From assembly GCF_004010195.1 (NCBI RefSeq), contig NC_057760.1, positions 3,621,907-3,647,284 on the forward strand: a stretch of 25,378 nt of DNA, written 5' to 3'. Positions 2,373 through 25,378 of the stretch are shown here, one piece after another. The translations under genes and the position numbers were made by a program. The stretch is from Chiloscyllium plagiosum. Lineage: Eukaryota. Positions within the stretch are counted from its first letter, which is position 1. Every line of letters starts with the position of its first letter. The notes beneath the pieces are model-generated. The model searched no databases. It saw only the letters and a list, made by a program, of their open reading frames with translations, and was not told where the DNA came from.

Positions 2373-2482
2373 GTTACTGGTCAGTGCCCCCCGGGACGGC
2401 ATTGCCAAGAGCAAGAACGGCGACATATACCGATGTAACATATCGAATAAAAGGAGCTCCAACTGCATGAAACTAAACTCTG
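2373..2482 (+). CDS. ITGA10: Internal exon of an I-domain integrin alpha chain (ITGA10-like), beta-propeller FG-GAP region; probably exon 3
   Basis: Acceptor ttggcAG at 2371-2372 and donor GTaaaa at 2483. The 110 nt (phase 2 to 1) translate as LLVSAPRDGIAKSKNGDIYRCNISNKRSSNCMKLNS(G). This matches my recollection of the integrin alpha1/2/10/11 motif 'LVGAP.....GDVYRC......C.K...G'. Confidence 0.88.
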
Positions 2483-2654: not shown

Positions 2655-4232
2655 TTCAGGGAGTGTTTGATGGGCACAGTATAGAAGGAACTTTACTTGC
2701 AGTTTAAGAGTGTAGAGGGAACTTTACTCTTTATGTAACCCTTGCTGTCCCTGTTCCTGGGAGTGTTTGATGGGGATAGTGTAGAGGGAGCCTTACTCTG
2801 TATCTAACCCTGTTCTGTTTCTATCCTGGGAGTGTTTGATGGGGGGACAGTGTAGAGAGAGCTTTACTCTGTATTTAACCCTATGCTGTCCCTGTCCTGG
2901 GAGGGTTTGATGGGGTGTACAGTGTAGAGGGAGCTTTACTCTGTATCTAACTCCGTGCTGTCCCTGTCCTGGGAGTGTTTGATGGGGGGACAGTGTAGAG
3001 AGAGCTTTACTCTGTATCTAACCCCGTGCTGTCCCTGTCCTGAAAGTTTTTAATGGGGGACAATGTAGAGAGAGCTTTACTCTGTATCTAACCCCGTGCT
3101 GTCCCTGTCCTGGGAGTATTTGATGGGGGGACAGTGTAGAGGGAGCTTTACTCTGTATCTAACCTCATGCTGTCCCTGTCCTGAAAGTTTTTAATGGGGG
3201 ACAATGTAGAGGGAGCTTTACTCTGTATTTAACCCCGTGCTGTCCCTGTCCTTGGGAGTGTTTGTTGGGGGGGACAGTGTAGAGGGAGCTTTACTCTGTA
3301 TCTAACCCCATGCTGTCCCTGTCCTGGGTGTGTTTGATGGGGGGACAGTGTATAGGGAGCTTTACTCTGTATCTAACCCCATGCTGTCCCTGTCCTGGGA
3401 GTGTTTGATGGGGACATTGTGGATGAAACCTTAATATGTTGGTAAAAAATGTAGAGAGAGCATTACTGTCAATTTAAAAGAGTAGAGGGTCAATTTCTAA
3501 TCGTGTGCTGTACCTGGCTTAGGAATGTTTGATGGATGCATTATCAAAGGAACTTTAATTCCACTTTAAAAAAGTAGAGAGAGCTTTACTCTGTATCTAA
3601 CCCCGTGCTGTCCCTGTCCCTGGGAGTGTTTGATTGGGGGACAGTGTAGAGGGAGCTTTACTCTGTATCTAACTCCGTGCTGTCCCTGTCCCTGGCAGTG
3701 TTTGATGGGGGGACAGTGTAGAGGGAGCTTTACTCTGTATCTAACCCCGTGCTGTCCCTGTCCTGGGAACATTTGATGGGGGGACAGTGTAGAGGGAGCT
3801 TTACTCTGTATCTAACCCCGTGCTGTCCCTGTCCTGGGAGTGTTTGATGGGGAGACAGTGTAGAGGGAGCTTTACTCTGTATCTAACCCCATGGTGTCCC
3901 TGTCCTGGGAGTGTTTGATGGGGGGACAGTGTAGAGGGAGCTTTACTCTGTATCTAACCCCATGCTGTCCCTGTCCTGGGAGTGTTTGTTGGGGGGACAG
4001 TGTAGAGGGAGCTTTACTCTGTATCTAACCCCATGGTGTCCCTGTCCTGGGAGTGTTTGATGGGGGACAGTGTAGAGGGAGCTTTACTCTGTGTCTAACC
4101 CCATGGTGTCCCTGTCCTGGGAGTGTTTGATGGGGGGACAGTGTAGAGGGAGCTTTACTCTGTATCTAACCCCATGGTGTCCCTGTCCTGGGAGTGTTTG
4201 ATGGGGTCATTAGAGAAGGACCTTTACTCTTC
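2655..4232. repeat. ~71-bp minisatellite, about 20 units in two blocks separated by a degenerate stretch (~3420-3575)
   Basis: Unit GGGAGTGTTTGATGGGGGGACAGTGTAGAGGGAGCTTTACTCTGTATCTAACCCCGTGCTGTCCCTGTCCT. Period is 71 (e.g. 3841 to 3912), with variable G-run length. Confidence 0.95.
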
Positions 4233-4460
4233 ATAATCCCATGCAGTTATGGGAGGTTGTTCCCAGAACAGATGTCACAAAATATCAAGATGACTTTATA
4301 CAGAGCGATGAAGTGCGAGGATAGTCCTTAGTGAGTGAGGTGTAATTTCTGGTGGGGTGCTTCAGTTTAATGAGGGTGAACATATATTTATGGAGCAGAA
4401 TGCTTCAATTATTCCCTGTTCAATGATAGATGTCTCTTTTGTTTGTCTACATTGCTGCAG

Positions 4461-4546
4461 GGGAGGCAGCTCTGAAAAACATCTCTGATGATATGAAGAA
4501 CACACACTTTGGCATGACACTGACCCGGAACTCCCAGGGGTTCATG
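4461..4546 (+). CDS. ITGA10: Internal exon of ITGA10-like integrin alpha; probably exon 4
   Basis: Pyrimidine-rich tract plus ctgcAG ending at 4460, and donor ATG|GTAAGC at 4547. The 86 nt (phase 1 to 0) are in frame with the previous exon and give (G)EAALKNISDDMKNTHFGMTLTRNSQGFM, resembling ITGA10 'NMHLGMSL...GGFM'. Not in the ORF track. Confidence 0.88.
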
Positions 4547-5147
4547 GTAAGCAGGTTCACTGGTCTCATGGTAAGCACTGGTTCATGGTAAGCACTGGTT
4601 CATGGTAAGCAGGTTCACTGGTCTCATGGTAAGCACTGGTTCATGCTAAGCAGGTTCACTGGTTCATGGTAAGCACTGGTTCATGGTAAGCAGGTTCACT
4701 GGTCTCATGGTAAGTACTGGTTCACGGTAAGCACTGGTTCATGGTAAGCACTGGTTCATAGTAAGCAGGTTCACTGGTCTCATGGTAAGCACTGGTTCAC
4801 GGTAAGCACTGGTTCATGGTAAGCACTGGTTCATGGTAAGCACTGGTTCATGGTAGCAGGTTCACTGGTCTCATGGTAAGCACTGGTTCATGGTAAGCAC
4901 TGGTTCATGGTAAGCACTGGTTCATGGTAAGCAGGTTCACTGGTCTCATGGTAAGCACTGGTTCATGGTAAGCACTGGTTCATGGTAAGCAGGTTCACTG
5001 GTTCACGGTAAGCACTGGTTCATGGTAAGCACTGGTTCATGGTAATCACTGGTTCACGGTAAGCACTGGTTCATGGTAAGCACTGGTTCACGGTAAGCAC
5101 TGGTTCATGGCAAGCACTGGTTCATGGTAAGCAGGTTCACTGGTCTC
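4539..5147. repeat. 17/24-bp compound minisatellite derived from the exon 5' splice site, about 32 units
   Basis: Units GTAAGCACTGGTTCATG (17 nt) and GTAAGCAGGTTCACTGGTCTCATG (24 nt). The first unit overlaps the exon end GGTTCATG|GTAAGC. Confidence 0.95.
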
Positions 5148-5354
5148 TGATCACGTTCACTTTGATACTTTGGGATGTTTGGTTTCAAATCAAACCCAGC
5201 CGAGTGGATAATAGTCCACAAGCTGCAGTCCACGAGCTCAGGCAAAGCCCAACCAGCCCCAAGCTGTCCAGCAGCACTTTTTCAAATTATTCCTCCAAAT
5301 CCCAAGACCAACGTTTCTTAATAACAGCAGCCACAATACACCAACCAAATGACA

Positions 5355-5812
5355 CCCACTACAAGAAGGATATTAGTAAGCTGGAGAGGGTTCAAAAGAA
5401 ATTGACCAGGATGTTGCCGGGAATGGACGGTCTGAGTTATAAAGGAGAGGCTGGATACGCTGGGGCTGTTTTCAGTGCAGCGCAGGAGATTGAGAGGTGA
5501 CCTTATAGAGGTTTACAAAATCATGAGGGGTACAGACAGAGTGTCCTTTCTCTAGGGTGGGGGATTTCTAGACTTGGAGGCACATTTTCAAGGTGAGAAG
5601 AGAGAGATTTAAGAAAAGCTGAAGGGGTAAATTCTTTACACAGAGGGTGGTTTGCATGTGGAATGAACTTCCTGAAGAAGTGGTGGATGTGGGTACAATT
5701 TCAATGATTAAAAAACATTTGGATAAGTACATGAAGAGGAAAGGTTTGGAGGAATATGGGCCAGGAGCAGGCAGGTGGGATTATGGTCAGCGTGGACTGA
5801 TTGGACCGTGTT
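5355..5812 (+). mobile_element. CR1 LINE 3' fragment
   Basis: Translates HYKKDISKLERVQKKLTRMLPGMDGLSY, then (frameshifted) LRGDLIEVYKIMRG and FFTQRVV-like / WNELPEEVVD, the ORF2 C-terminus of CR1. Confidence 0.88.
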
Positions 5813-5819
5813 GTGTGTC

Positions 5820-7770
5820 AGGCAAGAAGGAAGTTGTTGAACGAGGGAGCCATGGTTTACTAAAAAAGTAAGCTCTTGTCAAGAGAAAGAAGAAGGCTCA
5901 TGTTAGGATGAGGTGTGAAGGCTCAGCTAGGGCGCTTGCGGGTTACAAGTGAGCCAGGAGGGGACATGAGAAGTCGTTGACGGATAGGATCAAGGAAAAC
6001 CCTAAGGCTTTCTATAGGTATATCAGGAATAAAAGAATGACTAGAATATGATGATAGCCAATCCAAGATAGTAGTGGGAAGTTGTGTGTGGAGTCCGAGG
6101 AGATAGGGGAAGCACTAAATGAATATTGTTCATCAGTATTCACACTGGAAAAAGACAATGTTGTCAAGGAGAATACTGAGATACAGGCTACTAGACTAGA
6201 CAGGATTGAGGTTCACAAGGAGAGGTGTTAGAAATTCTGGACAGTGTGAAAATTGATAAATCCCCTGGGCCGGATGGGATTTATCCTAGGATTCTCTGGG
6301 AAGCCAGGGAGGATATTGTCAAGCTTTTGGCTTTGATCTTTATGTCATCATTGTCTACAGGAATAGTACCAGAAGACTGGGGGATAGCAAATGTTGTTCC
6401 CTTGTTCGGGCAGGGGATTAGAGACAACCCTGGGAATTATAGACCAGTGAGACTTACTTCGGGTGTGGGTAAAGTGTTGGAAAAGGTTATAAGAGATTGG
6501 AATTATAAGCATCTAGAAAGGAATGATTTGATTAGTGATAGTCAACATGGTTTTGTGAAGGATAGATCATGCCCCACAAACCTTATTGAGTTCTTTGAGA
6601 AGGTGACCAAACAGGTAGATGAGGATAAAGCAGTTGATGTGGTGTATATGGATTTCAGTAAGGTATTTGATAAGGCTCCCTAAGGTAGGCTATTGCATAA
6701 AATACAGGGGCATGGGATTGAGGGTGATTTAGCTGTTTGGATCAGAAATTGGCTAGCTGAAAGAAGACAGAGGGTAGTGGTTGATGGGAAATGTTCATCC
6801 TGGAGTTCAGTTATTTGTAGTGTACTGCAAGGGTCTGTTTTGGGGCTGCTGCTGTTTGTCTATTTTATAAATGACCTGGATGAGGGCATAGAAGGGTGGG
6901 TTAGTAAATGTGTGGACGACACTAAGGTCAGTAGAGTTGTGTATAGTGCCAAAGGATTTTGTAAGTTACCAAGGGACATGGATAAGCTGCAGAGCTGGGA
7001 TGAGAGGTGGCAAATGGAGTTTAATGCGGACAAGTGTGAGGTGATTCACTTTGAAAGGAGTAACAGTAATGCAGAATACTGGGCTAATGCTAGGATTTTC
7101 GGTAGTGTAGATGAACAGAGAGATCTCCGTGTACATGTACATAGATCCCTGAAAGTTGCCACCCAGCTTGATAGGGTTGTTAAGAAGGCATACAGTGTGT
7201 TAGCTTTTATTAGTAGAGGGATTGAGTTTCGGAACCATGAGGTCATGTTTGCAGCTGTACAAACATGGAGTATTGCGTACAGTTCTGGTCACCGCATTAT
7301 AGGAGGGATATGGAAGCTTTGGAAAGGGTTCAGAGGAGATTTACTAGGATGTTGCCTGGTATGGAGGGAAGGTCTTATGAGGAAAGGCTGAGGAACTTGA
7401 GGCTGTTTTCGTTAAAGAGCAGAATGTTGAGAGGTGACTTAAATAAGATAATCAGAGGTTTAGATAGGGTGAACAGTGAGAGCCTTTTTCCTCAGATGGT
7501 GATGGCTAGCATGAGGGGACATAGCTTTAAATTGAGGGGTGATAGATATAGGACAGATGTCAGTGGTAGTTTCTTTACTCAGAGTAATAGGGGCGTGGAA
7601 GGCACTGCCTGCAATAGTAGTGGACTGGCCAACTTCAAGGGCATTTAAATGAGCATTGGAAAGACATATGGATGAGAATGAAATAGTGTACGTTAGATGG
7701 GTTCAAAGTTTGGTGCAACATTGAGGACTGAAGGGCCTGTACTGTGCTGTAATGTTCATTGTTCTATGAC
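5820..7770 (+). mobile_element. 5'-truncated CR1 LINE, ORF2 reverse-transcriptase region (pseudogenised) with 3' UTR
   Basis: KSPGPDGIYPRIL, NYRPVRLTS, SQHGFVKDRSC, YMDFSKVFDK, LQGSVLG..FINDL, CVDDTK (degenerate FADD), WQMEFNADKC, LERVQRRFTRM. A stop at 6681 and frameshifts are present. 3' end GAAGGGCCTGTACTGTGCTGTAATGTTC. Confidence 0.95.
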
Positions 7771-10385: not shown

Positions 10386-10510
10386 TCCATGTTAATACAT
10401 GCCGGTCATCACCACCTGCTCCGACCTGTTTTGCACGCTCTCTGTTGGTTTACAAAGTGGAGACAGAAACTGAACACAGTAACCCATGTATTCTCAACAT
10501 CTGCTTCCAG

Positions 10511-10625
10511 GTGTGTGCTCCCCTCTGGTCGCAGAAGTGCGGAAGTTCCATCTACAATACTGGTATCTGTACAAACATCAGCTCCACGTTCCAGCCGTCG
10601 GGAATCACTGCACCCACCGCACAAG
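10511..10625 (+). CDS. ITGA10: Internal exon of ITGA10-like integrin alpha; probably exon 5, immediately before the I-domain
   Basis: Acceptor cttccAG ending at 10510 and donor G|GTACGA at 10626. The 115 nt (phase 0 to 1) give VCAPLWSQKCGSSIYNTGICTNISSTFQPSGITAPTAQ. 'CAPLWS..CGSS', 'FQP.G..APTAQ' fit ITGA10 better than ITGA11/1/2 as I recall those sequences. Confidence 0.92.
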
Positions 10626-10635
10626 GTACGAGTAA

Positions 10636-13600
10636 TGTGCTCACAGTGTCCCACTGTATTAGCAGTGTACTCAGTGTCCCACTGTATGAACAGTGTACTC
10701 GCAGTGCCCCACTGTATGAGCAGTGTACTCGCAGTGCCCCACTGTATGAGCAGTGTCCTCGCAGTGTCCCACTGTATGAGCAGTGTGCTCACAGTGTCCC
10801 ACTGTATGAACAGTGTACTCGCAGTGTCCCACTGTATGAGCAGTGTCCTCACAGTGTCCCACTGTATGAGCAGTGTCCTCACAGTGTCCCACTGTATAAG
10901 CAGTGTCCTCACAGTGTCCCACTGTATGCGCAGTGTCCTCACAGTGTCCCACTGTATGAGCAGTGTCCTCGCAGTGCCCCACTATATGCGCAGTGTCCTC
11001 ACAGTGTCCCACTGTATGAGCAGTGTCCTCACAGTACCCCACTGTATGAGCAGTGTCCTCACAGTGTCCCACTGTATGAGCAGTGTCCTCGCAGTGCCCC
11101 ACAGTATGAGCAGTGTCCTCGCAGTGTCCCACTGTATTAACAGTGTCCTCACAGTGCCCCACTGTATGAGCAGTGTCCTCACAGTGCCCCACTGTATTAG
11201 CAGTGTCGTCGCAGTGTCAAACTGTATTAGCAGTGTCCTCACAGTGTCCCACTGTATGAGCAGTGTACTTGCAGTGTCCCACTGTATGAGCAGTGTCCTC
11301 ACAGTGTCCCACTGTATTAACAGTGTACTCGCAGTGCCCCACTGTATGAGAAGTGTCCTCGCAGTGCCCCACTGTATGAGAAGTGTCCTCACAGCGCCCC
11401 ACTGTATGAGCAGTGTCCTCACAGCGCCCCACTGTATGAGCAGTGTGCTCACAGTGCCCCACTGTATTAGCAGTGTCCTCACAGTGTCCCACTGTATGAG
11501 CAGTGTCCTCGCAGTGCCCCACTGTATGAGCAGTGTCCTCGCAGTGTCCCACTGTATGAGTAGTGTACTCGCAGTGCCCCACTGTATGAGCAGTGTCCTC
11601 GCAGTGTCCCACTGTATGAGTAGTGTCCTCGCAGTGCCCCACTGTATGAGCAGTGTCCTCGCAGTGCCCCACTGTATGAGCAGTGTCCTCACAGTGTCCC
11701 ACTGTATGAGCAATGTCCTCACAGTGTCCCACTGTATGAGTAGTGTACTCGCAGTGTCCCACTGTATGAGCAGTGTACTCACAGTGCCCCACTGTATGAG
11801 CAGTGCACACGCAGTGTCCCACTGTATGAGCAGTGTCCTCACAGAGTCCCACTGTATTAGCAGTGTCCTCACAGTGTCCCACTGTATGAGCAGTGTCCTC
11901 GCAGTGTCCCACTGTATGAGTACTGTACTCGCAGTGTCCCACTGTATGAGCAGTGCACACGCAGTGTCCCACTGTATGAGCAGTGTGCTCACAGTGCCCC
12001 ACTGTATGAGCAGTGTACTCACAGTGTCCCACTGTATGAGCAGTGTCCTCGCAGTGCCCCACTGTATGAGCAGTGTCCTCACAGTGTCCCACTGTATTAG
12101 CAGAGTCCTCGCAGTGCCCCACTGTATGAGCAGTGTCCTCGCAGTGCCCCACTGTATGAGCAGTGTCCTCACAGTGTCCCACTGTATGAGCAGTGTACTT
12201 GCAGTGTCCCACTGTATGAGCAGTGTCCTCACAGTGTCCCACTGTATGAACAGTGTCCTCACAGTGTCCCACTGTATGCGCAGTGTCCTCACAGTGCCCC
12301 ACTGTATGAGTAGTGTCCTCACAGTGCCCCACTGTATGAGCAGTGTCCTCGCAGTGCCCCACTGTATGAGCAGTGTCCTCGCATGGTCCAACTGTATTAG
12401 CAGTGTCCTCACAGTGCCCCACTGTATGAGCAGTGTCCTCACAGTGCCCCACTGTATGAGCAGTGTGCTCACAGTACCCCACTGTATGCGCAGTGTCCTC
12501 ACAGTGCCCCACTGTATGAGCAGTGTCCTCGCAGTGCCCCACTGTATGCGCAGTGTCCTCACAGTGCCCCACTGTATGAGCAGTGTCCTCACAGTGCCCC
12601 ACTGTATGAGCAGTGTGCTCACAGTACCCCACTGTATGCGCAGTGTCCTCACAGTGCCCCACTGTATGCGCAGTGTCCTCACAGTGTCCCACTGTATGAG
12701 CAGTGTCCTCGCAGTGCCCCACTGTATGACCAGTGTCCTCGCAGTGCCCCACTGTATGAGCAGTGTCCTCACAGTGTCCCACTGTATGAGCAGTGTCCTC
12801 CCAGTGCCCCACTGTATGAGCAGTGTCCTCGCAGTGTCCCACTGTATGAGCAGTGTCCTCACAGTGTCTCACTGTATTAACAGTGTCCTCGCAGTGCCCC
12901 ACTGTATGCGCAGTGTCCTCGCAGTGCCCCACTGTATGAGCAGTGTCCTCACAGTGTCCCACTGTATTAGCAGTGTCCTCACAGTGTCCCACTGTATGAG
13001 CAGTGCACACGCAGTGCCCCACTGTATGAGCAGTGTCCTCACAGTGTCTCACTGTATTAACAGTGTCCTCACAGTGCCCCACTGTATGAGCAGTGTCCTC
13101 ACAGTGTCCCACTGTATGAGCAGTGTCCTCACAGTGTCCCACTGTATTAACAGTGTCCTCACAGTGCCCACTGTATGAGCAGTGTCCTCGCAGTGCCCCA
13201 CTGTACTCGCAGTGTCCTCACAGTATCTCACTGTATTAACAGTGTCCTCACAGTGCCCCACTGTATGAGCAGTGTCCTCACAGTGCCCCACTGTATGAGC
13301 AGTGTCCTCGCAGTGCCCCACTGTATGAGCAGTGTCCTCACAGTGTCCCACTGTATGAGCAGTGTCCTCCCAGTGTCCCACTGTATGAGTAGTGTCCTCG
13401 CAGTGCCCCACTGTATGAGTAGTGTCCTCGCAGTGTCCCACTGTATGCACAGTGTCCTCACAGTGTCCCACTGTATGCGCAGTGTCCTCACAGTGTCCCA
13501 CTGTATGCGCAGTGTCCTCACAGTGTCCCACTGTATGGCAGTGTCCTTCACAGTGCCCCACTGTATGAGCAGTGTCCTCACAGTGTCCCACTGTATGAGC

Positions 13601-14187
13601 AGTGTCCTCACAGTGTCCCACTGTATGAGCAGTGTCCTCACAGTGTCCCACTGTATGAGCAGTGTCCTCACAGTGTCCCACTGTATGAGCAGTGTCCTCA
13701 CAGTGTCCCACTGTATGAGCAGTGTCCTCACAGTGTCCCACTGTATGAGCAGTGTCCTCACAGTGTCCCACTGTATGAGCAGTGTCCTCACAGTGTCCCA
13801 CTGTATGAGCAGTGTCCTCACAGTGTCCCACTGTATGAGCAGTGTCCTCACAGTGTCCCACTGTATGAGCAGTGTCCTCACAGTGTCCCACTGTATGAGC
13901 AGTGTCCTCACAGTGTCCCACTGTATGAGCAGTGTCCTCACAGTGTCCCACTGTATGAGCAGTGTCCTCACAGTGTCCCACTGTATGAGCAGTGTCCTCA
14001 CAGTGTCCCACTGTATGAGCAGTGTCCTCACAGTGTCCCACTGTATGAGCAGTGTCCTCACAGTGCCCCACTGTATGCGCAGTGTCCTCACAGTGCCCCA
14101 CTGTATGAGCAGTGTCCTCGCAGTGCCCCACTGTATGAGCAGTGTCCTCACAGTGTCCCACTGTATGCGCAGTGTCCTCACAGCGCC
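10636..14187. repeat. 30-bp minisatellite, about 118 units
   Basis: Unit CAGTGTCCTCACAGTGTCCCACTGTATGAG with variant positions. A 1-bp deletion lies near 13168, and there is a homogeneous block around 13560-14060. Confidence 0.97.
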
Positions 14188-14504
14188 CGTCCTAGCTCTG
14201 GTCAGAGATGAAGGGCCTTCCACTCACCACAAGGAACAGACCATTCCCTGACTGCATCGAGGTGTTGTGTAAAACACCAAACACCACCTGGTCAGGATTA
14301 AGCTTCTTTGCTCTGGGCTTTCTTTACAAGAGTTTTTCCTTCAAAGTTGGGTGCAGTAATTGGGACATTGAGGTGGAATCTGTCCTAGTTGGTGAAGAGG
14401 AAGTGGAGGGGCAATTGTTACATACACCTCCATCCCACCCTCTGGTGCCTCGGCCAGATATCTCTCTTTCTCTTCGGGCATTGTTCCCATTGCCACTAGA
14501 TATA

Positions 14505-14825
14505 AGCGGGGACCTGGCTTCTCAGTCAGAAGGTTGTAGGTTCAAGTCCCACTCCAGATCCTTCAATACTTCACCCAAGCCCGACAATGTTTTAGTGTTA
14601 TGGATGAGACTTGAAACCAATCTTCCACCTACCTCTTCAGTGAATGGAAGAGATCCCATGGCACTATTTTGAGTTAGAACAAGGGAGTTCCTGAGCTGGT
14701 CTGGCCAATCTTTAACCTTTGATTAACGTCATTGAAATAACAGAAGAACAGGCCATGTTATTAATTGTGGGATCTTACTGTGTGCACATTGGCTGCTGTG
14801 TTTCTAACATGCTGATAGTGACTAA
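14505..14825 (+). mobile_element. Deu-domain SINE (SacSINE1/AmnSINE1-like)
   Basis: tRNA-like head TCAGAAGGTTGTAGGTTCAAGTCCCACTCCAG. Deu-like core AGATCCCATGGCACTATTTTGA...GGGAGTTC...CTGGCCAAT...TGTGGGATCTTACTGTGTGCACATTGGCTGCTGTGTTTC. Family identified from memory of the consensus. Confidence 0.75.
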
Positions 14826-15000
14826 GCATCAGAAGAGGACCACATGATGCCAGGCCATGAAAAACACTCTGTCAATACAACCCTTCATTCAAGCAGTTTT
14901 AACGTGACACATGGTGTGAATTGTGATGTTTTAAGATATCACCCTCTAGATTCCAGAGCAAGATCTGTGAGTTCAGGGATATGCTGGAATTTCAGCTTGC

Positions 15001-15500
15001 NNNNNNNNNNNNNNNNNNNNNNNNNNNNNNNNNNNNNNNNNNNNNNNNNNNNNNNNNNNNNNNNNNNNNNNNNNNNNNNNNNNNNNNNNNNNNNNNNNNN
15101 NNNNNNNNNNNNNNNNNNNNNNNNNNNNNNNNNNNNNNNNNNNNNNNNNNNNNNNNNNNNNNNNNNNNNNNNNNNNNNNNNNNNNNNNNNNNNNNNNNNN
15201 NNNNNNNNNNNNNNNNNNNNNNNNNNNNNNNNNNNNNNNNNNNNNNNNNNNNNNNNNNNNNNNNNNNNNNNNNNNNNNNNNNNNNNNNNNNNNNNNNNNN
15301 NNNNNNNNNNNNNNNNNNNNNNNNNNNNNNNNNNNNNNNNNNNNNNNNNNNNNNNNNNNNNNNNNNNNNNNNNNNNNNNNNNNNNNNNNNNNNNNNNNNN
15401 NNNNNNNNNNNNNNNNNNNNNNNNNNNNNNNNNNNNNNNNNNNNNNNNNNNNNNNNNNNNNNNNNNNNNNNNNNNNNNNNNNNNNNNNNNNNNNNNNNNN
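15001..15500. other. Assembly gap (exactly 500 N)
   Basis: Run of N. The round length suggests a scaffolding placeholder of unknown true size. Confidence 0.99.
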
Positions 15501-15609
15501 AAACAACATAATGATCCTTTCCCATTCTACTTCATGTTCAAATATTTCCTCAATGCACTTATCCCACTCAATGTACATATCCGTTTATGTGATTAACCTT
15601 GGGAAGCTA

Positions 15610-16185
15610 TAAAATAGGAAGTGCAGTAGTCCTTTTGGACGATGGAGTTTTCTACCCAATTCAATATAATGATGGCTAGCCCTTTATTTCCACACCGTGC
15701 TCTTGCTCTCTGCCCCACCCCATCCTTTTAGTGTCACAAAATTCTTATTTACATTCAGTGTCGTGGCTTGCAGGTGCGAAAACATTCCCCATGTTCACCA
15801 ATCTGTAAGTGCAGACATTTATTCTCATTTCAGTGCAGAGTGCATTGCCTGTACATGGTACTGTGCCCATTGTTTTAGACACCACAGCCTCGGGAATTAT
15901 CACCCCTGCTTCAAATCTGTCTCACCCTGTCAGAGTTTTATATATTTCACTGAGATCTCCACACCTTTTCATAAAGCCCATGGAATAAAGGCCCATTCAC
16001 CCCAAACTCTGCTCCCACAACAAGCTTGTTATTCCAGAGGTCATTTTGGTCATCCTTCGCTGCTCTTCCTCGATGTCAGGTTTGTCCTTTATGAGGTACG
16101 GAGATCAAAACTGCCCACAATGCTGCACAATGTTCGAGATGGGGGTCTCCCCATGCGCCTGTACAGCTGCACTGAGACACCCTTA
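15610..16185 (-). mobile_element. Highly decayed CR1 3' fragment
   Basis: ATAGGAAGTGCAGTAGTCCTTTTGG resembles the reverse CR1 terminus. GGTACGGAGATCAAAACTGCCCACAATGCT is the reverse of HC.QF.SP.L. Confidence 0.55.
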
Positions 16186-16312
16186 CTCCGGGATTCTGAT
16201 ACTGGGAGATTCAGTGATGGTAACACCATTGAATGCCAAGGGGCAGTGGTTAGATTGTATTTTATTGATGATGGTCACGGTCTGGCATTTGTGTGTCGTC
16301 AATATTACTTGC

Positions 16313-16416
16313 AACATTCTCATTCCTGATGAAGGGCTTATGCCCGAAACGTCGATTCTCCTGTTCCTTGGATGCTGACTGACCTGCTGTGCTTTACCAG
16401 CAACACATTTTCAGCT
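16313..16416 (+). mobile_element. ~104-bp Penelope-like pLTR mini-insert with hammerhead-like motif, nested in the LINE
   Basis: Homologous to 79-160 and 23058-23140. Flanked by CTTGC at 16308-16312 and 16417-16421. Confidence 0.75.
16322..16357 (+). ncRNA. Minimal type-I hammerhead ribozyme-like core (copy 2, most intact)
   Basis: CUGAUGA (16326-16332), stem II GGGC-UUAU-GCCC, GAAA (16346-16349), CGUC (16350-16353). Short stem I: AUUC pairs with GAUU with one mismatch. Confidence 0.55.
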
Positions 16417-17072
16417 CTTGCCACATATCAGCCTGGATACTGTACAGATCTTGTCGCATTTGGACATGGATTGCTTCAGTTTCTGAGGAGCCACAAACGT
16501 TGCTGAACATGATGCATTCATTGGCGACCATCCCCACTTCTGACATTATAATAGAGGGAAGGTCATTGATGAAGCAGACCTGAAGACACTTGGGCCTAGG
16601 CCACTGTCCGAGGGATTCCTACAGACTTGTCCTGGAGCTGAGTTTATTGACTTTCATCAGCCATGACCATCTTCCTACATGTCAGGTATGATCATAACCA
16701 GCAGGGACTTTGCCCCGATACCCATTGATTCCAGTTTTGTGAAGGCCCCTTGATGCCACACTTGGTCGAAGGCAGCCTTGAGTTAAAGCCCTGTCACTCT
16801 CACTCCACCTCTGGAATTCAGCTGTTTTGTCCATGTTTGAACCACGGTAATGAGGTCAGGATCTGAGTGGCTCTGGGGGACCCCAAACTGGGCGTCATTG
16901 ACCAGGTTATAGCTGAGCAAGTGCTGCTTAAAAGTATTGACACCTTCCATCACTTTACTGATGATCGAGAGGAGACTGATGGGGTGGTAATTGGCTGAAT
17001 TGGATTTGTTCTACTATTTATATGCAGGAGATACTTGGGTACTTTTCCACACAATCGGGTAACTGTCGTTGT

Positions 17073-18211
17073 TGTAACTGTATTGGAACTGTTTGGCTAT
17101 GGAAGTGGCAAGTTTTAGAGCACAAGTTTTCAGTACTATTGCCAGAATGTAGTCAGTGTATGTACCCTTTGGAGTATCCAGTGTCTATAACCGTTTCTGG
17201 ATATCGCGTGGACTAAATGGAATTGCTGATGACTGGTAACTGAATTCCTGAGGACCACTGAAGGAGGCCAAGATGGATCATCCACTAAGCATTTCTGACT
17301 GAAGATTGTTGCGTATGCATCAACCTTATATTTTGCACTGAAGTGCTGGGCTATTGCATCATTAAGGATGGGGATACTTGTGGAATCTCCTCCTCCAATG
17401 ACTTGTTTAATTGCCCCTAACGTTTCTCGACGAGATGTGGCATAACTGCAGAGCTTAGATCTGATCCGTTGCGTTTTGGGATCACATAGCTCTTTCTGTC
17501 ACTTACTGCTTATGCCGTTTGACACACAAGTTGTCCTGTTTGGTGGCTTCAATAGGCTGACACCTCATTTTCAGGTTTGCCTGGTGCTGTCCCTGCCATC
17601 CTGGACACTACATTGAATCAGGGTTGATCACCTGGCTTGATGTGTAACTGTATTGGAACTGTTTGGCTAGGGAAGTGGCAAGTTCTAGAGCACAAGTTTT
17701 CAGTACTATTGCCAGAATGTAGTCAGTGTATGTACCCTTTGGAGTATCCAGTGTCTATAACCGTTTCTGGATATCGCGTGGACTAAATGGAATTGCTGAT
17801 GACTGGTAACTGAATTCCTGAGGACCACTGAAGGAGGCCAAGATGGATCATCCACTCAGCATTTCTGACTGAAGATTGTTGCGAATGCATCAACCGTATA
17901 TTTTGCACTGAAGTGCTGGGCTATTGCATCATTAAGGATGGGGATACTTGTGGAATCTCCTCCTCCAATGACTTGTTTAATTGCCTCTAACGTTTCTCGA
18001 CGAGATGTGGCATAACTGCAGAGCTTAGATCTGATCCGTTGCTTTTGGGATCACATAGCTCTGTCTGTCACTTACTGCTTATGCCGTTTGGCACACAAGT
18101 TGTCCTGTTTGGTGGCTTCAACAGGCTGACACCTCATTTTCAGGTTTGCCTGGTGCTGTTCCTGCCATCCTGCACACTCCATTGAACCAGGGTTGATCAT
18201 CTGGCTTGATG
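17073..18211. repeat. 570-bp tandem duplication inside the LINE (17073-17642 and 17643-18211)
   Basis: Both copies start TGTAACTGTATTGGAACTGTTTGGC and end CTGGCTTGATG. By eye there are about 15 differences including one 1-bp indel. Confidence 0.95.
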
Positions 18212-19569
18212 GCAACTGGTGTGAGGGGGATATGCCAGACATGAGGTTGGGCTGAAGTACAATTCTGCTGCTATCAATGACCCACGACACCTGATGGACA
18301 CCCAGATTTGAGCTGCTAGATCTGTTCGAAGTCTGTCCTATTCAGCACCGTGATAGTACCACCCAAAATGGTGGAGGTTATTCTCAATGTGAAGGTGTGC
18401 CTTTGCTCCACAATGACTATGTGATGATCACACTTACGGATACTGTCATGGACAGATACTTCTGCAACTGGTAGTTTTGTAAGGCTGTGGTCAAATATGT
18501 CTTTTCCCTCTTGTCGGTGCCTTCACCACCTGCCATAGACCGAGTCGAGAAGTTATATCTTTTAGGAACCAACCAGCTCAATTAGTAATGCTGTTGCCGA
18601 ACCACTCTTTTTGTGGACATTGCAATCCCCCACCAGAGTACATTTTGTGCCTTTGCCTCCCTCCAAGTATTGATCAGCATGGAGGAGTACTGACTCATCA
18701 GTTAAGAGAGGCTGGTACATGGTAATCAGCAGGAGGTTTCCTTTCCCATGTGTAAACTAACGCCATGAGGCGTCATGGGATACAGAGACACTGTTGAGGA
18801 CTCCCAGAGCAATTCCCTTCCAATTGTATCCCACTGTTCCACCTCTTCTGCTGTGTATGTCCTGCTGCTGAGACAGGAGATATCCAGCGAAGGTGATGGT
18901 GTATCTGGAATATAGTCATACTCACAGAATCATACCATGTCAGGCTATTGCTTGACGAGTCTGTTTATTTCTATTCACTGTTTCCTGCCAGCTGTCCCAT
19001 TCTAGAAGAATGTCCATATATTCGCTCGAATCCACTAAGATTTGATTTTGCAAACTGGGCTTGGAGGTTTATCAACATTTTTCTGAAAATCATCGTGTTT
19101 TACATCCATTGCTTCTCTTTCATTTGTCTCCCAGTCTGTTTCTTAAACATAATTCACATTTCATAAATCTATGTTAAATTTGTCTATGACCATTACTTTC
19201 AGTCCCAATAATTTCTCCCAAGCCATTTACTTACTATGTTCTATTTTCCATGTAATATTTCGTTTTCCACACCAGATTTGTTTTTTTTTCTGGTATTGTC
19301 AGAAAGTTCTGTGAAGACAGAACTAAAATAGTAGATTCATAGTTTTGCCATTTCCCTGTTTCTCATTCTCCATTCTCTGGTTTCAAACTGGAAGGACCCT
19401 GCACTGTTTTTTCATACTTCTCACATTGACATAATTTGACAAGCTGTAACAGTTCACTCTTATAAACTTTGTGAACATTATCTTCAGAAACCCATCAGTT
19501 CCTGTCTTAAGCTGGTCAATAATTGAACTTCCACATCACATACTCACAGGAGCATAGTCTCTGTGCCAA

Positions 19570-21300
19570 TAGAAATACAGCATGATATATATTGGCCCCA
19601 CTTTCCAACACCAGGCCCATAGCCTGGAATGTTATGACACTTCCAAGTGCTCATCGAAGTACTTTTAACGGTTGAGAGGTTACCCGTGATAACTCCCCTT
19701 TCAGGAAGTACATTCCAGACCCCAACACTCTCTGGGTGGAAAAAAAGTAATCTTTAAATCCTCTCTGAACCTCAAACCCTTCACTTTAAAAATGTGCTCC
19801 CTTGTTATTGACATTCTGTCTAAAAGGAACAGCTGCTGTCTATCTACCCTGTCCATGCCCCTCGTTATCTTATCCTTCTGAATCACATCCCCCGCAGCCT
19901 CTCTGTCCAAAGTAAACAACCCGAGCTTATCCAGCCTCTCTCCATAGCTGATATGCTCCATCCCAGGGAACATCCTAGTGAATCTCCTCTGCAACCCCTT
20001 CAGTACAATCACATATTTCCTGTAATGTGGGTCCCAGAACTACATATAGTACTCCATCATGGACTAAACAAAGCCCTGTATAGCACTTATAATCTATGCC
20101 CTGATTAATAAACGCTACACCCAAGGTTCAATTCTTAACTAGTTCCATTACTAGTTCAGTCACATTCAGGGATGTGTGGAAATACACCCTCTGAGCTTCC
20201 TATTGTGCTGCCAATCATTGTGTACACCCAATGTCTGGTTCCTCCTTCCAAAGTACATCACCTCATATTGATCAGGATTACATTACATCTGCCATTGATC
20301 TGCCCATCTGATCATTCCACTTGTATCTTCCTGCAAAATCAGACCTTCGTCCTCACTGCCAATCACCCGGCCAATCTTTGTGTCAACCACAAACTTATTT
20401 ATCACAACTCCCACCACTCCACCCCCACCCTCCCCCCACAGATGCACATCTATACCATTTATGAATGCTACAAATAATAAGGGACACAGCACCGATCCCT
20501 GTGGACACCAGCGAACACTGGTCGCCAGTCACACAAACAGCATTCTCCGATCTCCCTCTGCCTCCTGACACTAAGACAATTTTCGTTGCAACTTGTAAAG
20601 TTATCCTTCATACTGTGAGATTTTAGTTTTTTTTTCAGCTTCCCATGTGGAACTTTGTCAAAGGCCTTGCTGCAAAATTAAATAAGCGACCTCCTCAAAC
20701 TAATTCAATCAAATCCACTAAATGTGACTTATCTCTGATAAGGTCATGATGATTATCCCTGATCAAACCTTGCCAATTCTGATTGGAATTCAATTTTCTC
20801 CTTCCCTATTTTCTCCAGTAGTTTCCCTAACAATGATCTAATACTCGCTCGTCTATAGTTCCCTGGTCTATCTCTACGACCCTTACTGTGAATTTGGAAT
20901 CATATTAGCTGCTCCCCAGTCCTCTGGCACCTCCCCTATGGTCAGATTCTAATTAAAATTTCCAGTCAGGGTCTTTCCTCCCTTGATTCCAACAGTATCC
21001 AGAGCTGTGGATTGGTCCAATTTTATACCAGACAAAGCCTCAAACCCCTGTTCGTAATTTACATCAATCTCTTCAAGAGCTTTCCAGTCCATCTTCTCGA
21101 ATTCTGTACCTGCATCCTCCTTCTCTCAAGTAAAACAGCGGTGATAGTCTCATGTCGCAATCTATCAATGTTCTACGGATTGACACACTGATTGCCCCTT
21201 TGGTTTCTAATTGACACTAACGGTTGCTGATTATTCTGTTCTACTTGTATGCGTAGAATATCATGGGATTCTGCCTAATCTCGCCTGCTTGCGCTTCTCC
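19570..21300 (-). mobile_element. Decayed CR1 LINE ORF2 plus 3' end
   Basis: Minus ORFs LKGLQRRFTRMFPGMEHISYGERLDKLGLF and PLLFVAFINGID..INKFVVDTKIG..LQED....RWADQWQM. GTGGAACTTTGTCAAAGGCCTTGCTG is the reverse of SKAFDKVPH. Confidence 0.85.
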
Positions 21301-21314
21301 ATGTCACTCTGTTA

Positions 21315-22480
21315 TTCTCTCCCCTCTATGTTTCTAAGTTTCACTACAATCACCTTTGATCTTTTGAAACTCGAGATCACAGGCTGAATTTCCCCCATAA
21401 GACAATCTTGCCATTTTAGGGATAAATCTGAAGAATACCTTTTGCAGTTCCTCTGTAGGCTGTATATTCTATCTTTGACTGGGACTCCAAATGGTACACA
21501 ATACTTTAAGTTTAATCTCAGCAACACTCTATGCAGCTGACACACAACATCTTCTGTATTCCAATTGCATTCACATGAATGTAAACCTAATTTTTAGTTT
21601 CCTATTTGCATGTGTTCTTCCCAATTCCTTTCACTTTAACTTTTCTTATGATATCAGTGTGAGAGTTCTGAAAAGAAGGTTCTCCTGATTATCCAACTAT
21701 ACGTTCTCCCTTAGCTCCTCATTGCCTACGTCCACAAGAATCATCTTCAAACCATTCCAAAAAATGTTTGCCACTTATAGTTTTCCTTTCATCGATGCTT
21801 TATCATACTCCCCAGTTTCGTCATTACCTTCTATATATCCAGTAACACGTTCTTTGTAATCGAGCCCAACAGACCAAAGATTACAAGTTACTGGTCTGTA
21901 GTTCACCACTCTCCATCTTCATTCTTTCTTAAACTGGCGGATAATATTTATAACCTTTGCCTTATCCAGATTGGCTAAATATCTTTCTGGAATGTATTGG
22001 AAACTATTGTGAAAATCTGCGATGCACTCAACATGTCTACTACTGAAATTCTTGTATGAAGTACATCTGATCTGTCAGATTTACAAATACTGTGTCCAGC
22101 TTCCTTTTAAAAGATGAACTCAACACTGATATGAATGATCTTAGATTTTACTTACATAAGTCCCATGGTCACTTGGTATTTCTGGGAAAATTTCTGGATA
22201 TTCTGCCTTGAAGATAGGTACAAAGAAACAGTTTCTTTCCCCTGTGATTTCTCTGTTCTCTTTAATAAATTATCCTGTCCTCACACCCACTGTTCCACAT
22301 TTGACCTTGTTTTTACTTTTGTTTCATACAGTGAAGTACGTTTTTTTTTCAGCAGACTTTATGCTTTTCTTTTGTTTGCATGCTTTTTTCCTCTTTTTCA
22401 TTTTCTTCTCAGTTTCTTGGTCATCCGTTGCTGGGTCCTGCATTTCTCTGAATCCATTAGCTTACTACAACACTTGGCAT
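21315..22480 (-). mobile_element. Very old CR1 fragments
   Basis: LNLKYCVPFG..KD (21312-21545 ORF). GTTACTGGTCTGTAGTTC at ~21887 is the reverse of NYRPVT. Boundaries are approximate. Confidence 0.5.
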
Positions 22481-22506
22481 TTTTCTAAGCTGCTTCCTTT
22501 GATCTA

Positions 22507-22932
22507 ATAGGTAGTTGAAGGTGAGGCTGAAAGTGATTGGTCGGAGAGACGGGTGAACCAATTGATGGGAAGGAAGATGAACACATAGGAACGTTCAAAA
22601 GGGGGGACGGGGACGGTGCTGAGTTGGAAGATTGGGCTAGGATAAGGTGGAGTTAGGGGAAATAGGGAAACTGGTGAAATCTACATTCATCCCCTGTGGT
22701 TGGAGGGTCCCAAGGTAGAGGGTCCCATGCTTCGGGTGGTTAGGGTTTGTCGATGGAGGAGGTCCAGGACTCTCATGTCCTTGGCAGAGTGGAAAGGGGA
22801 GTTAAAGTGTTTCAGCCACAAGGCGGTGGAGTTGGTCAATGTGACTGTCCCAGATATCTTCTCTGAAATGATCCACTTGTCTCGCCAATGTAGATAAGAC
22901 CACACTGGGTTTAATGAATGCAGTAGATGAGG
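22507..22932 (-). mobile_element. Penelope-like retroelement fragment with GIY-YIG endonuclease remnant and start of 3' UTR
   Basis: Minus translation LIYCIH*TQCGLIYIGETS (22932 to ~22875), then HFNSPFHSAKDMRVL and LGTLQPQGMNVDF, the C-terminus typical of vertebrate PLE ORFs. Confidence 0.85.
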
Positions 22933-22934
22933 CG

Positions 22935-23186
22935 TTCTGTCTCTCTTTCACACCTATCACTTTCACCCTCACCTTCATCTACCTATCGCATTCCTAGATA
23001 CCTCCCTCCTGCCACACCCCCTTCTCACTTACCTCTCAGCCCCCTTGACCCATAAGCCTCATTCCTGATGAAGGGCTTATGCCCAAAACGTCAATTCTGC
23101 TGCTCCTAGTATGCTGCCTGACTGTGCTTTTCCAGCACCATGCTCTTCGATACTGATCTCCAGCATCTGTAGTCCACACTTTCTCC
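22935..23186 (+). mobile_element. Penelope-like 3' UTR/pLTR with mutated hammerhead-like motif (copy 3)
   Basis: Pyrimidine-rich UTR, then CTGATGA (23065-23071), GGGCTTATGCCC and AAAACGTC (GAAA mutated to AAAA). Same tail as 107-203. Confidence 0.8.
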
Positions 23187-23829
23187 TCACACCTACAGGG
23201 TTTGCATGATTCAGATTTATAAAGGTTACTTCAAATAAAACAAAAACTATCGTGTACTCAAACAGCATAAAAGAAAACCAATGCATTGTGGTCACTGTTC
23301 CCAAAAGGTCCTTTATAGCAAAACGTTTAATTAGATCTTCTAATCATCCAACACCAATTACTAAATAACCTGGCAAAATGTTAATGCAAGCCATCTAACA
23401 CATGCTCATGAAATCCATTATTCCCAGCATTAGCTTTCAGTTGGGTTAACACAGTTTAGCTATAATGTAAAGACTACATTATTACTGCAGTAGCCACAAG
23501 TGTCTATATCTCATTTTCCTGTTTTATAACCTGCCCAACATTTGCATTGCAGCATTCACGTTGATATATAACTCCCATCAATGTTTGCTCCTCCTTGCTG
23601 TTATTACGCTCCACCTTACAAGATTCTGTAGAATCTGAGCGAAGTGGGCTTTGGGAAGATTAATGGTAGAGATCATCTCGCCACATCATTTATGTTCTTC
23701 TTAAGCATCATTGTGACATTTTCTCCAGATCTCCCGTTATGCTAATGCAGTAGAGAAATACAATGATCGTTCACCAATGCTCTGTATTTCCCCCAGAGAG
23801 CTGAGACAGCTCTAACTCGGGTGGGAACC

Positions 23830-24090
23830 TTACAGCAGGGTGATAAAGCATTGCTGCTGCTGTACGGGATCTTAGTGAGATCAATCTGGAGTAGTGTGTA
23901 CAGATTTAGTCTCTTCAATGAAGAAAGGATGTTGTTATATTGGAAGCAGCTCACAGATGGTCCCCTCAACTGATTCCTGCAATGAAGGTGCTCGCTTATA
24001 ATCAGGTGATTATATAAAGGATGATCAGGTTGATCAAATAGCCATTGGAGTTTACAAAAAATGAAAGAAGATCTTATTTCAACATAGATT
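23830..24090 (+). mobile_element. Decayed CR1 ORF2 C-terminal fragment
   Basis: CTGTACGGGATCTTAGTGAGATCAATCTGGAGTAGTGTGTACAG resembles LY..LVR..LEYCVQ, followed by KDV..LEA. Confidence 0.6.
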
Positions 24091-24860
24091 ACAGGAAGGA
24101 GTCAACAACTGAAGAGAATTACACAGATAATGGAGGAATCCATTCTGTTCACCAGCCTGTTACACAGGAACAACAGAAGGATATTCAGGCCTTTGACCCT
24201 GTTACACCAGAATACAATGAGGCTATTCAGCCCCTGGAGCCTGATGTATATTTACAGGAGGAGGGAAATAAGCCCCTCGAATCTATAACACTGGACCCAG
24301 AGTCAGCCATGCAGCACCAGTGTCCAGTTACACAGCAACAGGATCAGTCCATTCAGCCACCTCAAGTCCGTAACATAGGAACTGGAAGCGGTCACACAGT
24401 GACTGGAGATTTGTTACACTGGGATAACAGGAGGCCATTCAGACCCAGCGAGCCTGTTACAAAGGAATTGGAGAAGGATAAAAATTGTGTGAGACTTATT
24501 TCATGAGAAAGGAGGAGATAATTCAGTCTGTTGTATGGGAACAAGATAAGACCAATCGCTCCCTTGGTCCCATCTCTGGGATACATGAGGAGACCGTTCA
24601 GTATGTCCACCGATTATGGAGAAATATGACAAGACCCATCAGCCCCTCAAAATGTTACACAGCAGCGGGAACATTCCATAATCCCCCACCCCTCTAACGC
24701 ATCAACAGGAGGAGGTCATTCTGGCCTTGGAGATGACAACATGGGAACACTAGAAAGACTTCATCTCATCAATGTTGTACACCAGTAGGATGATGAGTCC
24801 ATTCAGCCACACATGCCTCTTACACAGCAATTGGAGCAGATTTATTAAAACCTATTGCCC
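24090..24860. repeat. Heavily decayed 42-bp tandem repeat
   Basis: Recurring GTTACACAG(G/C)AACAGGAGGAGGCCATTCAGCCCCT.GAGCCT motif with period 42 (24159 to 24201). Confidence 0.75.
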
Positions 24861-24949
24861 ATTAAACAGGATTTCAAAGAAAACGTGAAGATTTTTGAAA
24901 GGGAAGAACTTATAATGACGGAATACATTATGGAGTTAAATGTAACAAT

Positions 24950-25378
24950 AATCTGTTGTAATTTAAGGCAAATTATTAGACTCCATTGTTGAGGATATTT
25001 GCAAACTTAAACCACCAACTATCCGAGTCAACATGGTTTTTCAAAGGACAAATCAAGTTTGAAGTGTTTTCTTGAATTATTTAAAGATCTGATAGACAAG
25101 GTGGATGGAATCGTGGAGATGGAATATTTCTCGTCTTCCAGAAGGCATTGGACGTGTCGCTTCTCCAAAGAGTAAATGGTAAGATCAGACAACATGGGTT
25201 TAGGAGTAATTTATTAGCTTGAATAGAGGATTGGTTAACCAACAAAACGCAGTCAGATGAATTAAATGTGTCATTTTCTTTTGGAAAATGCAATTTGTTG
25301 GGGTGACATAGATTTCAGTTCTCATGCCTCAACCATTTGTGATCGATATTATTACTCGGTTGACGGGATAGAAAATAC
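24950..25378 (+). mobile_element. Decayed CR1 RT fragment, running off the window end
   Basis: AGTCAACATGGTTTT (SQHGF), TTCCAGAAGGCATTGGAC (FQKA.D), AAGATCAGACAACATGGGTTTAGG and IEDWLTNK motifs. Confidence 0.75.

What the first reader, a model, noticed from the sequence alone, without database searches (positions are those of the whole stretch)
4539..5147. A minisatellite made from the exon's own 5' splice site: about 28 tandem GTAAG donors
Seen in sequence: the repeat unit includes the last 8 exonic nt and first 6 intronic nt (GGTTCATG|GTAAGC), so about 28 GTAAG donors (counted by eye, including the real one at 4547) lie within 600 bp. Donor 2 (GT at 4571) is in frame and would add VSRFTGLM. 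Donor 3 (4588) frameshifts. All later donors include an in-frame TAA at 4589-4591. One downstream copy (GT at 4710, ATG|GTAAGT) matches the U1 consensus better than the authentic site. Established: competing 5' splice sites alter donor choice, and premature stops trigger NMD. Inference: array length could tune productive integrin mRNA, act as a U1 snRNP decoy cluster, or require a mechanism favouring the first donor.
Basis: partly seen in the sequence, partly recalled or inferred. Interest (0 to 1): 0.7.

Follow-up and report, generated by a model that had tools for sequence, protein, structure and literature searches.

The report
Repeated splice donor in shark ITGA10
A 0.6-kb tandem repeat has copied an exon-end splice signal of a bamboo-shark integrin gene 28 times, but the assembled RNA uses only the first copy, so this is a new example of a repeat type already known from several human genes and from lancelets.

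Summary
Window 4539-5147 is a 17/23/24-nt minisatellite with 28 GTAAG motifs, starting at the donor of an integrin alpha-10 exon (4461-4546). The frame, stop-codon and stronger-site claims check out. All three unit types derive from one copy of the boundary by slippage. In 2 of 2 runs with spliced contigs, the exon joins the next exon at the first donor, and no other-donor junction survived assembly; contigs drop minor forms, and the one raw-read run gave no reads. None of 18 ITGA10 proteins carries the donor-2 insertion. Array pieces occur in 3 of 4 runs; a diverged relative has the same ends but roughly 126 nt. The arrangement matches human F7 intron 7, 6-16, CBS, LMNB2 and PDGF repeats and amphioxus 'mirages'; in F7 only the first donor is used, whatever the copy number (PMC1557585). 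The scan noted this type before, twice in this genome (unchecked). Verdict: a new member of a known kind, probably near-neutral; length-dependent tuning is unsupported but not excluded.

The parts
2373..2482 (+). Upstream ITGA10 coding exon (exon A, 110 nt)
   Evidence: tblastn to P0012/P0010 residues 56-92; its end is the loose end before 4460 in spliced contigs of X1 and X5
4461..4546 (+). ITGA10 coding exon whose donor is repeated (exon B, 86 nt; probably exon 4, number recalled from the human gene, not checked)
   Evidence: covered by spliced contigs of depth 88.5 (X1) and 350.7 (X5)
4544..4552 (+). Authentic 5' splice site (GT at 4547), the only donor seen in use
   Evidence: loose end behind 4548 is the next exon in X1 and X5 (the first GT is shared by intron and next exon)
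4539..5147 (+). Minisatellite, 31 whole units (23 x 17 nt, 5 x 24 nt, 3 x 23 nt) plus a final 21-nt piece; 28 GTAAG motifs; 4 altered anchors (4646, 4853, 5042, 5110)
4568..4576 (+). Pseudo-donor 2 (GT at 4571): in frame, would add 8 residues
   Evidence: no junction seen; insertion absent from 18 of 18 proteins
4585..4593 (+). Pseudo-donor 3 (GT at 4588): frameshift; its TAA (4589-4591) is the in-frame stop for every later donor
4707..4717 (+). Pseudo-donor with the best U1 pairing (GT at 4710)
   Evidence: -10.5 vs -8.0 kcal/mol
5127..5147 (+). Last partial unit: the original intron start, running into unique intron
   Evidence: 24-nt unit matches exon end plus this piece with 0 mismatches; a near-identical 3' flank follows the array in X9
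10511..10625 (+). Next ITGA10 exon (exon C, 115 nt), acceptor AG at 10509-10510
   Evidence: 85-98% identity to shark and ray integrin alpha-10; joined to 4546 in X1 and X5

Best explanation
A short duplication across the exon-intron boundary of ITGA10 (shown: the 24- and 23-nt units are copies of -5..+19 and -8..+15 of one boundary; the 17-nt unit is the 23-nt unit minus 6 nt) seeded a minisatellite that expanded and homogenised by slippage or unequal exchange (inferred). Each unit carries a donor as strong as the real one (shown by U1 pairing energy), but the first donor wins (shown for the main mRNA in two runs). It wins most likely because exon definition across the 86-nt exon and 5'-to-3' order favour the most upstream intact site, as tested for human F7 (inferred by analogy). 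Any leak is cheap: donor 2 adds 8 residues in frame, and later donors give frameshifted or stop-containing RNA that NMD should remove (inferred from standard NMD rules). The array is therefore near-neutral intron DNA that is spliced out, and its length drifts.
For: Unit derivation. Spliced contigs use 4546|10511 in X1 (5001 nt, depth 88.5) and X5 (361 nt, depth 350.7), from two studies, and run unbroken through the junction; none of 8 loose ends joins an array unit to the next exon. Array words in X5 average 16.8 per window copy, 4.8% of spliced depth, and are evenly raised across 5 pieces. 17 of 17 shark/ray proteins have the same spacing over the junction and 0 of 18 have the insertion. X9 keeps both array ends, but array words sit at 0.7-1.5 times unique depth, about 126 nt. 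Donor columns +1..+5 vary no more or less than the rest (3 of 125 vs 7 of 300 positions in 25 of 31 units). The RNA folds less stably than all 200 shuffles, so structure does not hide the copies. Tandem arrays fill 23% of the window. F7 precedent: first site only, independent of copy number and of stronger downstream sites up to CV 91 (PMC1557585).
Against: Only assembled contigs were informative, and they drop minor paths: even the real exon-intron boundary words starting at 4519-4524 are missing from X5, so leak of roughly up to a fifth at donor 2 could be hidden (my estimate). X11 raw reads gave 0 reads from about 2% of the run. X5 array words are 2.4 times the upstream-intron depth per window copy, which could mean a longer allele, higher nascent coverage at an intron start, or some exon extension; I could not separate these. 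Human 6-16 and CBS do use the next two copies (PMC1557585 introduction). Protein models are predictions, not independent transcripts. No NMD-blocked data exist here.
Confidence: 0.8

Rival explanations
1. Leaky type, as in human 6-16 and CBS: donors 2 and 3 are used at a few to about 20 per cent, giving a minor 8-residue-longer integrin and a frameshifted NMD substrate, without any selected role.
For: Donors 2 and 3 have the same U1 pairing energy as donor 1; two proximal pseudo-sites are used in 6-16 and CBS (PMC1557585 introduction); contigs cannot exclude it. The loop before the junction varies in length in frog ITGA10 and integrin alpha-4, so the insertion might fold.
Against: No such junction survived in X1 or X5; 0 of 18 proteins carry the insertion, including both bamboo-shark models. 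This rival is compatible with the best explanation in everything but the size of the leak.
Confidence: 0.3
2. Regulatory rheostat: array length or U1 loading sets the share of productive ITGA10 mRNA through downstream-donor use and NMD, or slows removal of the intron.
For: Every donor from the fourth on includes an in-frame stop and one is stronger than the real site; tandem-repeat length is tied to splicing at thousands of human loci (PMC10078293, passages); array words are 2.4-fold above upstream intron depth in X5.
Against: Stops and frameshifts are the default for such units; no conservation of donor columns; the array appears about five-fold shorter in a relative; F7 copy number 1-12 did not alter donor choice; array-crossing RNA is at most about 5% of spliced depth in X5 if that allele equals the window's.
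Confidence: 0.08
3. Assembly artefact.
For: The assembly has a gap and a 97%-identical 578-nt tandem block nearby; exact copy number may be wrong.
Against: Array pieces with 17- and 24-nt units occur in X1 and X5 at multi-copy depth and in X9 DNA with both ends; units carry dispersed variants.
Confidence: 0.02

Closest known systems
Human F7 intron 7 37-bp VNTR (Borensztajn et al. 2006, PMC1557585; read parts 1-4 of 6: abstract, introduction, results, most of the discussion)
   Same: First unit spans the exon-intron boundary; identical donors follow; only the most upstream is seen in use.
   Different: Here the units are shorter (17-24 nt) and of three types, with 28 donors against 5-9; the donor is stronger; pseudo-site function was not tested here.
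Human 6-16 (IFI6) intron 2, CBS intron 13, LMNB2 and PDGF intron 4 minisatellites (known to me only through the introduction and reference list of PMC1557585; the originals were not read)
   Same: Same arrangement; 6-16 has 25 pseudo-sites, close to the 27 here.
   Different: 6-16 and CBS use the two nearest copies as well; LMNB2 and PDGF use only the first. Which subtype this is remains open below the contig detection limit.
Amphioxus 'mirages' (Adh3, globins BflGb6/BflGb9; PMC3087553, passages only)
   Same: Tandem duplications of an exon-intron boundary, units of 10-160 bp, copy number differing between haplotypes, regular splicing reported as undisturbed.
   Different: Described in cephalochordates; this is a shark, donor side. 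My searches (listings only, 10 of 4,450 and 12 of 135 papers shown) listed no paper on this locus.

Membership tests
Boundary-spanning donor minisatellite (F7 IVS7 type / 'mirage') | First monomer spans a real exon-intron boundary | tested here: met
   Array starts at 4539, 8 nt inside the exon; the junction at 4546 is used in spliced contigs
Boundary-spanning donor minisatellite (F7 IVS7 type / 'mirage') | Donor sequence reiterated head to tail in the intron | tested here: met
   28 GTAAG at 32 anchors; 26 anchors pair with U1 at -8.0 kcal/mol or better
Boundary-spanning donor minisatellite (F7 IVS7 type / 'mirage') | Authentic, most upstream donor gives the main mRNA | tested here: met
   2 of 2 runs with spliced contigs (X1, X5); assembled contigs only
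Boundary-spanning donor minisatellite (F7 IVS7 type / 'mirage') | Copy number and unit order differ between related genomes | tested here: met
   X9 has an extra 23-nt unit and about 126 nt of array against 609 nt; the length is an estimate from contig depth
Boundary-spanning donor minisatellite (F7 IVS7 type / 'mirage') | Length polymorphism among individuals of one species (VNTR in the strict sense) | tested here: inconclusive
   X5 depth is 2.4 times expectation, but RNA coverage confounds it; no long reads
Boundary-spanning donor minisatellite (F7 IVS7 type / 'mirage') | Pseudo-sites become active when the first donor is lost | not testable with these tools
   Needs a minigene
Leaky subtype (6-16, CBS) | Second and third donors used in normal transcripts | tested here: inconclusive
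   Not seen in contigs, which drop minor forms; raw-read run gave 0 reads
Integrin alpha-10 (host gene) | Exons match ITGA10 orthologues | tested here: met
   8 of 9 hits named integrin alpha-10; the three exons translate to an exact 103-residue part of P0001

The most novel reading that the evidence does not exclude
The array persists because its first unit is 24 nt: leak to donor 2 stays in frame and ends in GLM, mimicking the exon's own GFM end, so it yields a foldable integrin with a longer loop, while donors 3-28 form an NMD sink whose pull grows with copy number. Bamboo-shark lineages with about 6 versus about 30 units would then make different amounts of this cartilage collagen receptor. 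With other such arrays noted in the same genome (EMILIN1, GIPC1; unchecked), sharks would offer a natural dose series for how the spliceosome picks the first of many identical donors.
Probability: 0.08. Interest if true: 0.55.

Novelty: new member of a known kind. Interest (0 to 1): 0.18.

Why it matters
As it stands it is one more case of a described oddity. Its use is as a test object: donors 17-24 nt apart, tighter than F7's 37 nt, with one stronger internal site and an apparently five-fold length difference between close relatives, would test whether first-donor preference holds in a non-mammalian vertebrate. If length did tune ITGA10 output, it would be a repeat-length control on a collagen receptor in a cartilaginous fish, but nothing here shows that.

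Tried and rejected
No genome is held for this window, so the unit could not be sought genome-wide; it occurs nowhere else in the window. Run search: no RNA holder listed on record, which is no evidence either way; 4 of 22 runs were laid, on 4210-4630 only, i.e. the exon and the first four units, so later donors could show only by mapping onto these. X11 gave 0 reads: no test. PDB search with exon C alone found nothing and Pfam did not name the single exons. AlphaFold on an 8-sequence alignment gave mean pLDDT 33.9: discarded, so the structural effect of the 8-residue insertion is untested. RNA structure masking the pseudo-donors: rejected (z = +3.9). Selection on the donor columns: none seen in 25 of 31 units (the five 24-nt units and one deleted 23-nt unit were left out). 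MaxEntScan and SpliceAI were not available; U1 pairing energy was used. Turri 1995 is not held. Paper searches on duplicated donors and U1 spacing (36), UPF3A (42; 0 papers) and the CBS VNTR (43) gave nothing that I used. No supplements were read.

Full report
Observation. The region 4539-5147 is a tandem array. It holds exactly 28 GTAAG motifs from 4547 to 5127; the rest of the window has 10 in 24,269 bases, 0.25 expected in 609 nt. Parsing at 32 anchors gives 31 whole units: 23 of 17 nt, 5 of 24 nt and 3 of 23 nt; four anchors are altered. Donor 2 extends the exon by 24 nt in frame, donor 3 by 41 nt, and all 29 later anchors include TAA 4589-4591. The donor-3 frameshift meets no stop in the next exon, so its stop lies outside what the window shows. 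By duplex energy with the U1 5' end (11-nt motif recalled), the real donor and most copies score -8.0 to -8.2 kcal/mol and the 4710 copy -10.5; the gene's two other donors in the window score -5.3 and -5.6.

Host gene. Exons 2373-2482, 4461-4546 and 10511-10625 splice into one open frame. The third exon matched 9 proteins: 8 named integrin alpha-10 (7 sharks and rays at 85-93%, one frog at 65%) and one bamboo-shark hypothetical protein at 98%, of which the three exons give an exact 103-residue part. That protein aligns with the N-terminal region of integrins alpha-4, alpha-X and alpha-L in the PDB. No later exon is found in the window.

Origin. Taking the exon end plus the last 21-nt piece as the single original boundary, the 24-nt unit matches -5..+19 with 0 mismatches, the 23-nt unit tested matches -8..+15 with 1, and the 17-nt unit is the 23-nt unit minus 6 nt. 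The exon end and intron +8..+13 share a GGTTCA hexamer (seen in the sequence), a plausible slippage seed (inference). Donor columns +1..+5 deviate at 3 of 125 positions and the others at 7 of 300, in 25 of 31 units, so there is no sign of selection for or against the donors. Tandem arrays cover 23% of the window.

RNA and related DNA. The run search listed 22 runs, none on record as an RNA holder; I laid four on 4210-4630. X11 (raw single-cell reads, about 2% read) gave 0 reads. X1 and X5, from two studies, each hold a contig that joins exon A to exon B and exon B to exon C at the first donor (5001 nt at depth 88.5; 361 nt at depth 350.7), so both contain spliced RNA. None of the 8 loose ends joins an array unit to exon C, although pieces as short as 30 nt were laid. 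The limit is real: contigs drop minor paths, and even the true boundary words starting at 4519-4524 are absent in X5, so modest leak at donor 2 or 3 is not excluded. In X5 the upstream intron has depth 7.04 and array words average 16.8 per window copy, 4.8% of the spliced depth but 2.4 times the intron depth, evenly over 5 pieces. A longer allele or higher nascent coverage at the intron start explains this as well as extension does; I could not separate them. X9 looks like genomic DNA (flat depth 7.5 across intron and exon) from a diverged animal (10 other letters over 4250-4595). It has the same array start, an extra 23-nt unit and a near-identical 3' flank, but its array words sit at 0.7-1.5 times unique depth, about 126 nt or some six donors (an estimate from contig means). 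X1 and X9 carry the same species label yet differ at 4540, so I draw no conclusion on species. All 17 shark and ray proteins retrieved have the same spacing across the junction and none of 18 has the donor-2 insertion; these are gene models.

Mechanism. Shown: equal-strength donors in tandem, first donor used in the main mRNA, no stable RNA structure over 4461-4760 (all 200 shuffles fold at least as well). Inferred: the first donor wins through exon definition and 5'-to-3' order; exon length would pass 300 nt beyond the donor at 4761 (that long internal exons are disfavoured is general knowledge). Inferred: leak is either in frame (donor 2) or an NMD substrate. An AlphaFold attempt to place the junction failed (mean pLDDT 33.9).

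Known systems. PMC1557585 (parts 1-4 of 6 read) describes the human F7 intron-7 VNTR, whose first 37-bp unit spans the donor. Only the most upstream site is used; pseudo-sites work when it is lost; sites up to CV 91 do not compete while perfect ones do; 1-12 copies do not change the choice. Its introduction lists 6-16 (25 pseudo-sites, two nearest also used), CBS (two also used), LMNB2 and PDGF (first only); I did not read those originals. PMC3087553 (passages) calls such boundary duplications 'mirages' in amphioxus and reports unstable copy number with regular splicing. PMC10078293 and PMC2812944 (passages) show that tandem repeats can alter splicing in general. Searches for a shark case (listings only) showed none among the papers listed. 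Earlier notes of this scan report the same type in other animals and twice in this genome (EMILIN1, GIPC1); I did not check them, and one led me to the 'mirage' term.

Verdict. Real, correctly described, and a new member of a known kind. Most likely near-neutral slippage DNA spliced out from the first donor (0.8); minor use of donors 2-3 remains possible; a length-dependent rheostat is unsupported (about 0.08). Interest 0.18.

Noticed in passing
window 10626-14183: A 30-bp array of about 118 copies starts right at the next exon's donor and in register with it (102 GTA motifs at 30-nt period), but the copies lack the exon end and pair weakly with U1 (about -2 vs -5.6 kcal/mol). Two consecutive introns thus open with a minisatellite.
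   Followed up: partly
window 2709-4206: 71-bp tandem array (about 21 copies) filling most of the upstream intron.
   Followed up: no
run X5, record 10, on window 4525-4568: 44 nt of the exon-intron boundary joined to 313 nt of sequence whose adjoining 15-mer is not in the window; probably a library or assembly chimera.
   Followed up: partly
window 17073-18218: A 578-nt block duplicated head to tail at 97% identity; tandem duplication or haplotype mis-join.
   Followed up: no
window 10626-25378; proteins P0001, P0012: No further ITGA10 exon is found in the remaining 14.7 kb, which includes a 500-N gap; both bamboo-shark models are truncated (158 and 251 aa) while X1 holds a 5001-nt transcript contig, so the gene is probably intact and poorly assembled.
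   Followed up: partly
window about 5350-7750: A decayed LINE-like stretch (judged by eye, not searched) follows the array; five AATAAA/ATTAAA hexamers lie in this intron.
   Followed up: no
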